Source: the human T2T-CHM13v2.0 reference genome, Homo sapiens
Assembly (NCBI RefSeq): GCF_009914755.1
Contig: NC_060930.1
Strand: one strand, 5' to 3'
Length of the DNA stretch: 64,000 nucleotides
Both the position numbers and the translations under genes were made by a program. A model generated the notes under the pieces. That model saw only the letters and a program-made list of their open reading frames with translations, was not told the origin of the DNA and searched no databases. Position 1 is the stretch's first letter; each line of letters opens with the position of its first letter. Shown piece after piece: positions 14,263 to 45,497 of the stretch.

Positions 14263-14783
14263 TTTGAGAATTGTCTATTTATATCCTTAGCCCACTTTTT
14301 GACGGGATTGTTTGTTTTTTTCTTAGTGATTTGTCTGAGTTCATTGTAGAATACAAATGGCCAAGAAACACATGAAAAAATGCCCAACATCACTAACGAT
14401 CAGGGAAATGCAAATCAAAACCACAATGCAATACCACCTTATTCCTGCAAGAATGGCCATAATGAATAAATAAAAAATACAGTAGATGTTGGTGTGGATG
14501 CGGTGAACAGGGAACACTTCTACACTGCTGGTGGGAATGTAAATTGGTACAGCCACTGTGGAAAACAGTGTGGAGATTCCTTAATTAACAAAAAGTAGAA
14601 TTCCCATTTGATCCAGCAATCCCACTACTGGGTATCTACTGAGAGAAAAAGAAGTCATTATTTGAAAAAGATACTTGCACATGCATGTTTATAGTAGCAC
14701 AATTCACAATTGCAAAATCATGGAACCAACTCAAATACCCATCAATCAAAGAGTGGATAAAGAAACAGTGATATATCTCTATC

Positions 14784-14824
<41 letters not shown>

Positions 14825-15190
14825 GATGGAATACTACTCAGCCATAAAAAGGAATGAATTAACAGCATTTGCAATGACCTGGATGAGATTGGAGACTATT
14901 ATTCTAAGTGAAGGAACTCAGGAATGGAAAACTCAATATTACATGTTCTCACTGATATGTGGGAGCTAAGCTATGAGGATGCAAAGGCATAAGAATGACA
15001 CAATGGACTTTGGGGACTTGGGGAAAGAGTGGGAGGGGGACGAGGGATAAAAGGCAACAAATATGGTGTAGTGTATCCTGCTCGGGTGATGGGTGCACCA
15101 GGATCTCACAGATCACCACTAAATAACTTACTCATGTAACCAAATACCACCTGTACCCCAATAACTTATGGAAAAATAAAATAATAATGA
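14263..15190 (+). mobile_element. L1PB1-like element with 5' inversion
   Basis: 14263-14350 is antisense L1 and 14351-15190 is sense ORF2 end plus 3'UTR; TSD AGAAAAGCAGATT/AGAAAAGCTGATT; internal (TCTG)n near 14785-14822. Confidence 0.9.
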
Positions 15191-15251
15191 AAGAAAAGCT
15201 GATTCTTTGAAAGGATCTTTTCCCAATCTACTTTTCAAACCCCAGACTTCT

Positions 15252-15330
15252 TTGTTTTTTGCAAAGTGAAAGCAAGTTTATTAAGAAAGTAAAGGAATAA
15301 AAGAATGGCTACTCCATAGACAGAGCAGCC
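15252..15330 (-). mobile_element. Polyadenylated retrocopy of a MER41-type LTR R region
   Basis: Minus strand GGCTGCTCTGTCTATGGAGTAGCCATTCTTTTATTCCTTTACTTTCTTAATAAACTTGCTTTCACTTTGC plus A tail; 17-bp TSD TCAA(A/G)CCCCAGACTTCT. Confidence 0.8.
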
Positions 15331-15845
15331 TCAAGCCCCAGACTTCTAATAAACATTCCCATTCATTCTTTGTCTTTGTCAAAATGGACATCTTTCTGTC
15401 TCTGACCTTTTCTATTTCATTATTTCTGCTTCATACTCTTTTGAAATGCCCTTACCCTGGCTGTCAAAATCTTACTCAGTCTTTAGGGACAAAATAAATG
15501 CCACCTTTTCCAGGAAATTTGTTGAGGTTCAAGTCAGAATTCATTATGCTCTCCTTCACTAGAATTAAGCTTTATGTTGTTCTTTTTGGTTAATATTTAT
15601 CACATTATTTTTTATAGTTAGTTGAATAAATGTGTTTTATCTAATAGATTATAAATTGCTTGCAGGAGCATTATATTTTAGACTTGAATTTTACCATTAA
15701 CATCTATTATTATGGTGTCTTTCTTTTAGAAAAGACTCAATTAATATTTATTAAGTAGCATTATAATTATTTTTAGTGACTCTTGGCATAACACAAATTT
15801 TCTCAACTTTTAATTTTTATTAATAAAAGGAACTAATGAGAATTT

Positions 15846-27547: not shown

Positions 27548-29128
27548 TGAGAGGTGACAGCGTGCTGGCAGTCCTCACAGCCCTAGCTCGCTCTCGGCGC
27601 CTCCTCTGCCTGGGCTCCCACTTTGGCGGCACTTGAGGAGCCCTTCAGCCCACCGCTGCGCTGTGGGAGCCCCTTTCTGGGCCGGCCAATACCGGAGCCG
27701 GCTCCCTCAGCTTGCAGGGAGGCGTGGAGGGAGAGGCGCGAGCGGGAACCGGGGCTGCGCGCGGCTCTTGCGGGCCAGCTGGAGTTCCGGGTGGGCGTGG
27801 GCTTGGCGGGCCCCGCACTCGGAGCAGCCGGGCCCTGGGCAGTGAGGGGATTAGCACCCGGGCCAGCGGCTGCGGAGGGTGTACTGGGCCCCCAGCAGTG
27901 CCAGCCCACCGGCGCTGCGCTCGATTTCTCGCCGGGGCCTTAGCCGCCTTCCCGTGGAGCAGGGCTCGGGACCTGCAGCCCGCCGTGCCTGAGCCTCCCA
28001 CCCCCTCGGTGGGCTCCTGTGCGGCCCGAGCCTCCCCGATGAGCGCCGCCCCCTGCTCCATGGCGCTCAGTCCCATCGACCACCCAAGGGCTGAGGAGTG
28101 CCGGCGCACGGCGCGGGACTGGCAGGCAGCTCCACCTGCAGCCCCCGTGCGGGATCCACTGGGTGAAGCCAGCTGGGCTCCTGAGTCTGGTGGGGACGTG
28201 GAGAACCTTTATGTCTAGCTCAGGGATTGTAAATACGCCAATCTGCACCCTGTGTCTAGCTCAGGGTTTGTGAATGCACCAGTGGACACTCTATATCTAG
28301 CTACTCTGGTGGGGCCTTGGCGAACTTTTATGTCTAGCTCAGGGATTGTAAATATACCAATCAGCACCCTGTATCTAGCTCAAGGTTTGTAAACACACCA
28401 ATCAACACCCTGTGTCTAGCTCAGGGTTTGTGAATGCACCAGTCGACACTCTGTATCTAGCTACTCCAGTGGGGCCTTGGAGAACCTTTGTGTGGACACT
28501 CTATAGCTAATCTGGTGGGGATGTGGAGAACCTTTGTGTCTAGCTCAGGGATTGTAAACGCACCAATCAGCGCCCTGTCAAAACAGACCACTGGGCTCTA
28601 CCAATCAGCAGGATGTGGGTGGGGCCAGATAAGAGAATAAAAGCAGGCTGCCGAGCCGGCAGAGGCAACCCAGTTGGATCTCCTTCCATACTGTGGAAGC
28701 CTGGAACTTTCACTTTGTAATAAATTTCGTTACTGTTGCTCTTTGGGTCCACATCTGCCTTTATGAGCTGTAACACTCACTGAGGAGGTCTGCAGCTTCA
28801 TTTCTGTAAGGCAGCCAGACCAGGAGCCCGCCGGGAAGAACGAACAACGCCAGTCGCGCCACCTTAAGAGCTGTAACACACGTGGAAGGTCTGTAGCTTC
28901 ACTTCTGAGCCGGCGAAACCACAAACCCACCAGAAGGAAGAAACTCCGAACACATCTGAATATCAGAAGGCACAAACCCACCAGAAGGAAGAAACTCTGA
29001 ACACATCTGAATATCAGAAGGCACAAACTCTGGACACCACCTTTAAAAACTGTTAATGCTCACTGCGAGGGTCCGTGGTGTCATTTCTTGACGTCAGTGA
29101 GACCAAGAACCCACCAATTCCGGACACA
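27548..29128 (+). mobile_element. LTR12C (ERV9) solo LTR
   Basis: TGAGAGGTGACAGCGTGCTGGCAG start, CpG-rich U3, tandem TCTAGCT/CCAATC enhancer repeats, CCACCAATTCCGGACACA end. Confidence 0.95.
28601..28670 (+). promoter_or_regulatory. ERV9 LTR core promoter (CCAAT, GT box, GATA, AATAAAA TATA equivalent)
   Basis: CCAATCAGCAGGATGTGGGTGGGGCCAGATAAGAGAATAAAAGCAGG is intact. Confidence 0.7.
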
Positions 29129-44044: not shown

Positions 44045-45497
44045 TGAAAGGTGACAACCTGCTGGCAGCCCTCGCTCGCTCTTGGCGCCTCCTCGGCCTC
44101 GGTGCCCACTCTGGCCGCGCTTGAGGAGCCCTTCAGCCCGCCGCTGCACTGTGGGAGCCCTTTCCTGGGATGGCCGAGGCAGGAGCCGGCTCCCTCAGAC
44201 TGCGGGGAGGTGTGGAGAGGCACGGGCGGGAACCAGGGTTGTGCGGCGCTTGGAGGCCAGTTAAGAGTTCCGGGTGGGCGTGGGCTTGGCGGGCCCCGCA
44301 CTCGGAGCGGCAGGCCGGCCTCGACGGCCCCGGGCAGTGAGGGGCTTAGCACCCAAGCCAGCAGCTGCGGAGCGTGCGCCAGGTCCCCCAGCAGTGCCGG
44401 CCGACGGTGAGTCTCCCCACCACCCCCCACCGCCGTGGGCTCCTGCGCGACGCGAGTTTCCCCGACGAGCGCAGCCCCCTGATTCAGGGCAGCCAATTCC
44501 ATCGATCTCCCAAGGACTGAAAAGTGCCGGCGCATGGCGCGGGAAGGGCAAGCAGCTCCACCTGCAGCACCAGTGCGAAATCCACTGGGTGAAGCCAGCT
44601 GGGCTCGAGAGTCTGGTGGGGACTTGGGGAATGTTTATGTCTAGCTAAGGGATTGTGAATGCACCAATCGGCACTCTATCTAGCTCAAGGTTTGTAAATG
44701 CACCAATCACCGCTCTGTGTCTAGCTAATCTGGTGGGGACTTGGAGAATCTTTAAGTCTAGCTAAGGGATTGTGAATGCACCAATCGGCACTCTGTATCT
44801 AGCTCAAGGTTTGTAAACACACCAATCAGCACCCTGTGTCTGGCTCAGAGTTTGTGAATGCACCAATCGACACTCTGTATCTAGCTAATGTAGTGGGGAT
44901 GTGGAGAACTTTTGTGTCTAGCTCAGGGATTGTAAACGCACCAATCAGCACCCTGTCAAAACGGACCAATGAGCTCTCTGTAAAACAGACCAATCAGCTC
45001 TCTGTAAAATGGACCAATCAGCAGGATGTGGGTGGGGCCAGATAAAGGAATAAAAGCAGGCTGCCCAGGCCCGCAGTGGTAATCAGCTGGGGTTTCCTTA
45101 GGGAGGTTGGAAGGTTTGTTCTTTCTCTCTTTGCAGTAAATCTTGCAGGTGTGTGTTTTTTGGGTTCATGCTGCTTGTATGAGCTGTGATGATTACCATG
45201 AAAGTTTGCAGCTTCACTTTTAAAACCAGTGAGAGCACAAACCCACCGGGAGGAACAAGCAATTCCAGACGTACTGCTTTAGGAGGTGTAACACTCACCG
45301 GCGAGGTTTGTAGCTTCACTCCTGAGCCAGTGAGACCACGAATCCACCAGCAGGAAAAAAAGATTCCAAACATGTCTGAATGTCAGAAGAAACAATTTCC
45401 AAACACACTGCCTTTAAGAACTGTAACACTCCCTGTGAGGGTCTATGGCTTCATTCTTTAAGTCAGTGAGACTAAGACGCCACCAATTCGGGGCACA
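44045..45497 (+). mobile_element. LTR12-family (ERV9) solo LTR
   Basis: TGAAAGGTGACAAC start, CCAATC enhancer repeats, CACCAATTCGGGGCACA end, 4-bp TSD CTGG/TTGG. Confidence 0.93.
45014..45085 (+). promoter_or_regulatory. ERV9 LTR core promoter
   Basis: CCAATCAGCAGGATGTGGGTGGGGCCAGATAAAGGAATAAAAGCAGG with several upstream CCAAT boxes. Confidence 0.7.

What the first reader, a model, noticed from the sequence alone, without database searches (positions are those of the whole stretch)
15235..15347. L1-mobilised mini-retrocopy of only an LTR R region (MER41-type)
Seen: a 70-nt body with AATAAA about 16 nt before a short A tail, a 17-bp TSD, a TT/AGAA L1-endonuclease-like site on the minus strand, and no U3 or U5. 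The first 24 nt fold into a hairpin (GGCUGCUCUG-UCUA-UGGAGUAGCC). Established: integrase makes 4-6-bp TSDs, so a long TSD plus poly(A) indicates L1 target-primed reverse transcription. Inference: the template was either a tiny RNA that starts and is polyadenylated inside one LTR, or a 5'-truncated longer transcript. If many copies share this 5' end, they would form a SINE-like family of LTR-derived small RNAs. The MER41 assignment is from recall.
Basis: partly seen in the sequence, partly recalled or inferred. Interest (0 to 1): 0.7.

Follow-up and report, generated by a model that had tools for sequence, protein, structure and literature searches.

The report
Family of LTR R-only retrocopies
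This 70-base insertion is one of dozens found, and likely hundreds, of human DNA copies of just the short transcribed segment of an old retroviral promoter (MER41); they carry the marks of LINE-1 pasting and share one start point, and they likely record tiny RNAs that began and ended inside the viral repeat.

Summary
In detail: a 70-nt body identical to part of MER41 LTRs, AATAAA 16 nt before a 9-nt A tail, a 17-bp TSD (1 mismatch) and a TT/AGAA site. It is not a lone copy. Of 81 tailed copies collected by their 3' end, 39 start at the same point; 37 ends fall in an 8-nt window where 0.34 are expected. That point lies 29 nt after a TATA-like box. Eight R-U5-internal copies lacking U3 also start there, so it is very likely the LTR start site. 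Best reading (0.68): short LTR-initiated RNAs, cut at the unprotected R poly(A) signal and retroposed by L1. Collapse of full-length retrocopies between their two R repeats is disfavoured, because HERV-W (same R length) gives at most 3 R-only against 11 full-length copies, versus 33 against 10 here (p=3.5e-4). A hairpin-loop stop remains possible. It works like a SINE but is not one: no Pol III boxes and no lineage of its own. MER41 also left long L1-made copies, although a 2017 review calls HERV-W the sole L1-mobilised HERV group. No RNA data were available.

The parts
15331..15347 (-). 5' copy of the 17-bp target-site duplication; preceded on the minus strand by TT (15348-15349), giving a TT/AGAA L1-endonuclease-like site
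15261..15330 (-). 70-nt MER41 LTR R region (MER41A-type), from the inferred transcription start to the poly(A) site
   Evidence: 100% identical to intact LTRs L006-L011; starts 29 nt after the TATA-like box of 14 of 14 LTRs checked; those LTRs lack the tandem GAS of MER41B
15307..15330 (-). 5' hairpin of R (9-bp stem), inherited from the LTR
   Evidence: z=-3.78; no covariation test made
15277..15282 (-). AATAAA polyadenylation signal
   Evidence: sequence; U5 follows 16-17 nt later in intact LTRs
15252..15260 (-). short decayed poly(A) tail, AAAAAACAA, beginning at the LTR's CA dinucleotide
15235..15251 (-). 3' copy of the 17-bp target-site duplication

Best explanation
This is an L1-type insertion (tail, long TSD, endonuclease-like site) of exactly the R region of a MER41 LTR, one of a family that shares its 5' end, and it likely copies a short RNA that started at the LTR's own start site and was cut and polyadenylated about 70 nt later. 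Shown: anatomy, MER41 origin, shared 5' end, TATA-like box at -29, the same 5' end in R-U5-internal copies, and a strong splice donor after 5' LTRs but not after solo LTRs. Inferred: RNA polymerase II fired from MER41 LTRs in the primate germ line or early embryo. In solo LTRs (and leaky 5' LTRs) nothing protected the promoter-proximal poly(A) signal, since by analogy with HIV-1 and foamy virus U1 snRNP on the downstream donor would do that. L1 ORF2p reverse-transcribed the resulting R-poly(A) RNAs to full length. The copies lack U3, hence a promoter, and are likely inert fossils.
For: (1) 3'-anchored sample, 81 of 94 loci fetched: 39 begin at the R start; 37 ends lie in an 8-nt window against 16 over 380 nt of U3 (0.34 expected; P=4e-44 even at triple rate). 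(2) Among 42 copies with a TSD above the 99th-percentile null, the TSD ends 1 nt before GCTG in 22 and directly at it in 8; TSD length is 7-22 nt, mode 14; 37 of 42 have at least 3 purines in the first 4 TSD bases. (3) 5'-anchored sample, 56 hits: 35 R+tail (33 independent), 8 R-U5-internal without U3, 1 R-U5-tail-TSD, 1 R-U5-nonviral, all with the same start. R-U5 without U3 is the known 5' end of full-length HERV-W retrocopies (PMC5016936). (4) TATA-like box at -29 in 14 of 14 LTRs, matching -25 to -30 for TE start sites (PMC12963367). (5) GGTAAGT donor 164-177 nt after AATAAA in 6 of 6 LTRs followed by internal sequence and in 0 of 12 without; HIV-1 has its donor about 200 nt away (PMC3694450). 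(6) HERV-W control: at most 3 R-only against 11 paired full-length copies, versus 33 against 10 here, Fisher p=3.5e-4.
Against: No RNA was observed; the start site is inferred from DNA. In U3-R RNA a longer hairpin is predicted whose loop ends 1 nt before the shared 5' end. R-only and long tailed copies have the same subtype mix (21:13 vs 18:13), which fits a common source pool as well as collapse does and does not point to solo LTRs. The far end (tail and TSD) of an R-U5-internal copy was sought for one locus only (L132) and not found, so those 8 are not proven retrocopies. Whether the leading G is templated or a copied cap could not be settled. 13 of 94 tailed loci (chr18-X and one chr14) were not read.
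Confidence: 0.68

Rival explanations
1. Collapse of full-length processed proviral copies: L1 inserts TSD-R-U5-internal-U3-R-polyA-TSD, and recombination between the two 70-nt R repeats (or a jump of the reverse transcriptase from the 3' R to the 5' R) leaves TSD-R-polyA-TSD, a 'solo R'.
For: It gives exactly this structure and the same 5' end. Long MER41 retrocopies exist: 17 of 81 carry PPT plus shared internal sequence, and 8 R-U5-internal 5' ends were found. R-only and long copies share the same subtype mix.
Against: HERV-W has an R of the same length (71 nt, PMC5016936) and many full-length copies but few R-only ones: at most 3 against 11 (plus about 10 more R-U5 hits with non-U3-looking flanks), p=3.5e-4. 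About 77-80% of copies would have had to collapse through 70 nt of homology, whereas 9 of 23 intact about 550-nt LTRs sampled still flank internal sequence.
Confidence: 0.17
2. A structural stop: long U3-R transcripts fold a hairpin across the U3/R junction, and reverse transcription stalls, or the RNA is cut, at its loop, so ordinary 5' truncations pile up at one base.
For: With 15-60 nt of U3 added, the predicted fold switches to an 8-15-bp stem whose 3-nt loop ends 1 nt before the shared 5' end. This copy has 5 nt of microhomology at its 5' junction.
Against: Eight R-U5-internal copies start at the same base although a 5' LTR transcript has no U3 to fold with. The TATA spacing predicts this base independently. 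A stall is expected at the foot of a stem, not after unwinding it (inference). 35 of 81 copies read through the hairpin.
Confidence: 0.1
3. A true SINE: one or a few R-only copies became source elements and amplified themselves.
For: Short, tailed, TSD-flanked, uniform 5' end, probably hundreds of copies.
Against: No Pol III A or B box and an internal TTTT. The eight commonest substitutions of 35 R-only copies include seven that also occur in U3-bearing tailed copies, and none is private to more than 3 copies. R-only copies mirror several LTR subtypes and several poly(A) sites.
Confidence: 0.03

Closest known systems
HERV-W (LTR17/HERV17) processed pseudogenes
   Same: L1 hallmarks (tail, TT/AAAA, long TSD); R-U5 5' ends and U3-R 3' ends; R about 71 nt (PMC5016936, passages read). 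MER41 shows the same long classes here, and HERV-W shows 2-3 possible R-only copies.
   Different: In MER41 the dominant class is R alone (39 of 81 tailed copies). The passages I read in PMC5016936, PMC5537654 and PMC3031232 describe no R-only class, and PMC5537654 calls HERV-W the sole HERV group mobilised by L1. The two Pavlicek 2002 papers, which report many 0-0.5 kb HERV-W pieces, could not be read.
SINEs (Alu) and the SINE-R part of SVA
   Same: Short, non-autonomous, L1-dependent, mostly full length with a fixed 5' end. SVA also carries HERV-K10 sequence (PMC2912911).
   Different: No internal Pol III promoter, and the copy cannot start its own transcript (U3 is absent). Sources are many LTRs, not a master lineage. 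SINE-R is part of a composite element.
Promoter-proximal polyadenylation at retroviral 5' LTRs (HIV-1, MoMLV, foamy virus)
   Same: Poly(A) signal inside R; a splice donor about 170-200 nt downstream in the 5' LTR context; accidental short R transcripts (PMC3694450, passages read).
   Different: Known from live viruses in culture; here it would be recorded as germ-line DNA fossils of an extinct simian ERV. U1 dependence in MER41 is untested.
L1-made retrocopies of other short or non-autonomous RNAs (retro-DNAs, retro-miRs, sno/snRNA pseudogenes)
   Same: L1 copies any polyadenylated RNA, and retrocopies reveal how the parent was transcribed (PMC11195612 passages; PMC7692494 listing only).
   Different: The parent is a repeated LTR promoter/terminator unit, and both RNA ends are sharply defined.

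Membership tests
MER41 LTR | Sequence identity to LTRs that carry MER41 marks | tested here: met
   100% over 70 nt to TG...CA-bounded LTRs; these carry the MER41B-like motif printed in PMC2897888. No Dfam/Repbase library was on hand.
MER41 LTR | Subtype A versus B (tandem GAS 21 bp apart marks B, PMC2897888 Table 2) | tested here: inconclusive
   22 of 23 best-matching LTRs lack GAS within 250 nt upstream (A-like); L030 has the 21-bp tandem and matches 67 of 70 positions. R alone cannot fix the subtype.
Retroviral (integrase-made) solo LTR | U3-R-U5 with TG...CA ends and 4-6-bp TSD | tested here: not met
   No U3 or U5; 17-bp TSD; A tail.
L1-made ERV processed pseudogene | Poly(A) tail at the R/U5 border | tested here: met
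L1-made ERV processed pseudogene | Long variable TSD and TT/AAAA-like site | tested here: met
   17 bp, TT/AGAA; family TSDs 7-22 nt, mode 14
L1-made ERV processed pseudogene | Colinear with proviral mRNA (R-U5-internal-U3-R, or its 5'-truncated form) | tested here: not met
   Only R is present, and it starts at the inferred start site rather than at a random point: a variant, not the standard form.
SINE | Internal Pol III promoter (A and B boxes) or small-RNA-derived head | tested here: not met
   No box match; no Rfam family near its threshold.
SINE | L1-dependent 3' tail and TSD | tested here: met
SINE | Copies act as sources (own subfamilies with private diagnostic changes) | tested here: not met
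   No substitution private to more than 3 of 35 R-only copies; the 70-nt length limits power, and no tree was built.
Capped Pol II transcript, U1-controlled poly(A) site | Cap-mapped start and U1-dependent suppression | not testable with these tools
   Only DNA correlates: TATA spacing, donor position. The RAMPAGE paper's supplements had no MER41A/B rows. The cap-G test was inconclusive.

The most novel reading that the evidence does not exclude
MER41 LTRs made a class of about 70-nt capped, polyadenylated R-only RNAs in the primate germ line, and L1 fixed several hundred of them as a promoter-less, SINE-like family hidden among annotated MER41 fragments. MER41 is then a second HERV group massively mobilised by L1, and such fossils map the start and poly(A) sites of extinct LTRs at base resolution and record family-specific failure of U1 protection.
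Probability: 0.55. Interest if true: 0.72.

Novelty: new variant of a known kind. Interest (0 to 1): 0.6.

Why it matters
It suggests a route by which LTR promoters feed L1 with tiny RNAs, between processed pseudogene and SINE. It contradicts the review statement that only HERV-W was mobilised by L1. It gives a DNA-only way to map start and poly(A) sites of dead LTR families. It also means some annotated MER41 copies (56 non-U3 pattern hits against 363 U3-type hits, before correction) lack the U3 enhancer, which matters for studies of MER41 interferon and placental enhancers. It predicts a testable RNA species from solo LTRs today. This single copy is probably inert.

Tried and rejected
Chance repeat: rejected. 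Known small-RNA family: two Rfam hits at E 2.7-4.8, far below threshold. Random 5' truncation: rejected. Cap-derived extra G: the subtype tested has mixed upstream bases, inconclusive. Far-end TSD of R-U5-internal locus L132: no second copy nearby at up to 1 mismatch; the other 7 were not tried. LTR12-like elements of the window as a second control: my motif search printed nothing, so HERV-W was used. In the HERV-W control, hits with AGTGG- or ATCGG-like flanks proved to include U3-bearing variants (L175, L176, L182) and were not counted as full-length; only the 11 pairs 1.1-7.7 kb apart were counted, and the three possible R-only copies (L177, L194, L201) were all counted against my reading although their TSDs were not verified. 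Only 100 of 136 tailed HERV-W hits and 100 of 230 tailed MER41 hits were listed. In the MER41 5'-anchored set, 3 false positives (L130, L152, L169), 5 Alu-broken, 3 unresolved, 2 segmental duplicates and L146 were left out of the 33:10 or 33:8 tables as stated in the report. Literature: 10 searches found no description of R-only or MER41 L1 retrocopies. Pavlicek et al. 2002 (Genome Res) was not held under three ids; Pavlicek 2002 (Gene) and Costas 2002 were not looked up. RetroSeeker's held supplements had no MER41 (one file cut; the rows shown were from the fly table), so its human table may list some of these loci. bioRxiv supplements were not seen.

Full report
1. The observation. The window shows a 17-nt direct repeat at 15235-15251 and 15331-15347 with one mismatch. 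On the minus strand it encloses a 70-nt body, AATAAA 16 nt before the body's end, and a 9-nt A tail; the bases before the 5' repeat read TT/AGAA. The first 24 nt fold as a 9-bp stem (z=-3.78). Rfam gives nothing near threshold. The insert lies antisense in an intron of the predicted lncRNA LOC105374914 (hub annotation).

2. Source. A search of the window's own genome gave 1376 candidates, 40 scored. Intact LTRs match the body at 100% and continue into U5 exactly where the tail begins. They carry the motif that Schmid and Bucher print as MER41B-like (PMC2897888, passages read) about 64 nt upstream, with 1-4 mismatches of 26 in 21 of 23 LTRs. L030 has the 21-bp tandem GAS of MER41B; the other 22 lack GAS within 250 nt upstream. 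So the family is MER41 and the copy is A-like. All MER41 subtypes are reported to date from the simian ancestor (PMC11905727, passages).

3. A family with one 5' end. A pattern anchored on the poly(A) signal plus an A run found 230 places at up to 2 mismatches (control 1) and 93 at up to 1 (one more). I read 81 of these 94; the 13 unread are on chr18-X and chr14 and were left out by list order. 5' ends measured against single real LTRs: 39 at the start of the body, 35 longer, 1 six bases upstream, and 6 shorter (4 of them abut an Alu). 37 ends fall in an 8-nt window, against 16 over 380 nt of U3 (0.34 expected; P=4e-44 at three times the rate). Of the 35 longer copies, 20 hold all of U3, and 17 of these continue through a polypurine tract into shared internal sequence: classic L1-processed proviral copies. 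Among 42 short copies (from both samples) whose TSD beats the 99th percentile of 300 mismatched pairs, the TSD ends one base before GCTG in 22 and at it in 8; TSDs are 7-22 nt (mode 14) and purine-led in 37.

4. The shared end is very likely the start site. A TATA-like box (CATAAAA, with single-base variants) begins 29 nt upstream in 14 of 14 LTRs; TE start sites have it at -25 to -30 (PMC12963367, passages). Patterns anchored on the 5' end with a non-U3 flank gave 13+43 hits against 363 U3-type hits. Their 3' fate: 35 R+tail (33 independent; L156/161/170 are duplicates of one insertion), 8 R-U5-internal, 1 R-U5-tail-TSD (L146), 1 R-U5-nonviral (L121), 5 broken by Alu, 3 unresolved, and 3 false. 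R-U5 without U3 is the recognised 5' end of full-length HERV-W retrocopies (PMC5016936, passages). Against this: the far TSD of L132 was not found, and the other seven were not tested. Only 2 loci were caught by both samples; a Chapman estimate gives about 550 R-only copies, which is rough given 2 recaptures.

5. Mechanism. Retroviruses with the poly(A) signal in R must silence it in the 5' LTR. HIV-1 and foamy virus use U1 snRNP on the major splice donor, about 200 nt away in HIV-1, while MoMLV leaks (PMC3694450, passages). A GGTAAGT donor lies 164-177 nt after AATAAA in 6 of 6 MER41 LTR or R-U5 copies followed by internal sequence and in 0 of 12 without. I infer that solo LTRs, and leaky 5' LTRs, made about 70-nt R-poly(A) RNAs that L1 copied to full length. 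Tails begin at several points 4-26 nt after AATAAA, as cleavage sites would. R-start copies are enriched for one R subtype relative to U3-type hits (43:13 against 44:56 in the first 100 listed of 363, p=1e-4), so sources were a subset of LTRs. Steps shown: DNA anatomy and statistics. Steps inferred: transcription, capping, U1 control, tissue.

6. Rivals. (a) Collapse of full-length copies between their two R repeats gives the same product. As a control I took HERV-W motifs from a genomic LTR. Of 58 5'-anchored hits, 11 pair with a tailed 3' end 1.1-7.7 kb away, and at most 3 are R-only (28 of the remaining 47 hits were read, and many have U3-variant flanks). 33:10 versus 3:11 gives p=3.5e-4. 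Collapse through equal-length repeats should not differ so much between families, but MER41 is older and a family-specific template jump is not excluded. The equal subtype mix of R-only and long copies does not favour my reading. (b) With U3 attached, the RNA is predicted to fold a longer hairpin whose loop ends 1 nt before the shared end. The R-U5-internal copies and the TATA spacing argue against this as the cause, but the coincidence is real. (c) True SINE: no Pol III boxes and no private lineage.

7. Against what is known. The closest class is HERV-W processed pseudogenes. A 2017 review calls HERV-W the sole HERV group mobilised by L1 (PMC5537654, abstract and passages); the MER41 copies here contradict that. 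A broad HERV classification states that it did not separate processed copies (PMC4724089, passages). RetroSeeker notes ERV-mapped TSD-plus-tail insertions in bulk without naming MER41 (PMC11727581, passages and held supplements). Ten searches found no R-only class. However, Pavlicek et al. 2002 was not available and reported many very short HERV-W pieces (as cited in PMC5016936), so prior notice is possible. Other papers seen as passages only: HERVarium preprint, CFC-seq preprint, PMC3031232, PMC11195612, PMC2912911, PMC5538554, PMC2853125.

8. Verdict. New variant of a known kind; interest 0.6. The value lies in the family, not in this copy.

Noticed in passing
L072 (C1:202863270) and L118 (C17:49939923): Two R-only copies sit antisense inside the R region of another MER41 LTR, each with a TSD; L037 sits inside the internal part of the long copy L038. 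More self-nesting than 0.1% genome coverage suggests; unexplained (T-rich endonuclease hotspot, or homology-guided targeting).
   Followed up: no
L126, L134, L143, L150, L164; L039, L071, L080, L106: Alu elements inserted into the T-rich 50-nt stretch of R in 5 of 56 and 4 of 81 copies: R looks like an L1-endonuclease hotspot.
   Followed up: no
L101 (C12:43607768), L002, L045: Tailed copies holding a whole U3-R preceded by non-viral sequence (L101 has a 16-bp TSD 812 nt upstream): retrocopies of host transcripts that ended at a solo MER41 poly(A) site.
   Followed up: partly
L121 (C1:70802763): R-U5 followed by non-viral sequence and lacking U3: possibly a retrocopy of a solo-LTR-driven read-through transcript.
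   Followed up: no
L146 (C4:154804718): R plus part of U5, tail and 12-bp TSD: a second poly(A) site inside U5.
   Followed up: partly
L156, L161, L170 (C10, C14, C22): One R-only insertion multiplied by segmental duplication (near-identical flanks).
   Followed up: partly
L177, L194, L201: Possible R-only retrocopies of HERV-W type, so the class may exist at low frequency in other ERV1 families.
   Followed up: partly
window 14330-15190: 3' part of an L1 element with its A-rich tail ends about 45 nt before the insertion (L1 label from recall); no sign that the two are one event.
   Followed up: no
window about 27950-29000 and 44600-45100: Two tandem-repeat-rich LTR-like elements (LTR12-like by recall) stood out in the repeat scan.
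   Followed up: no
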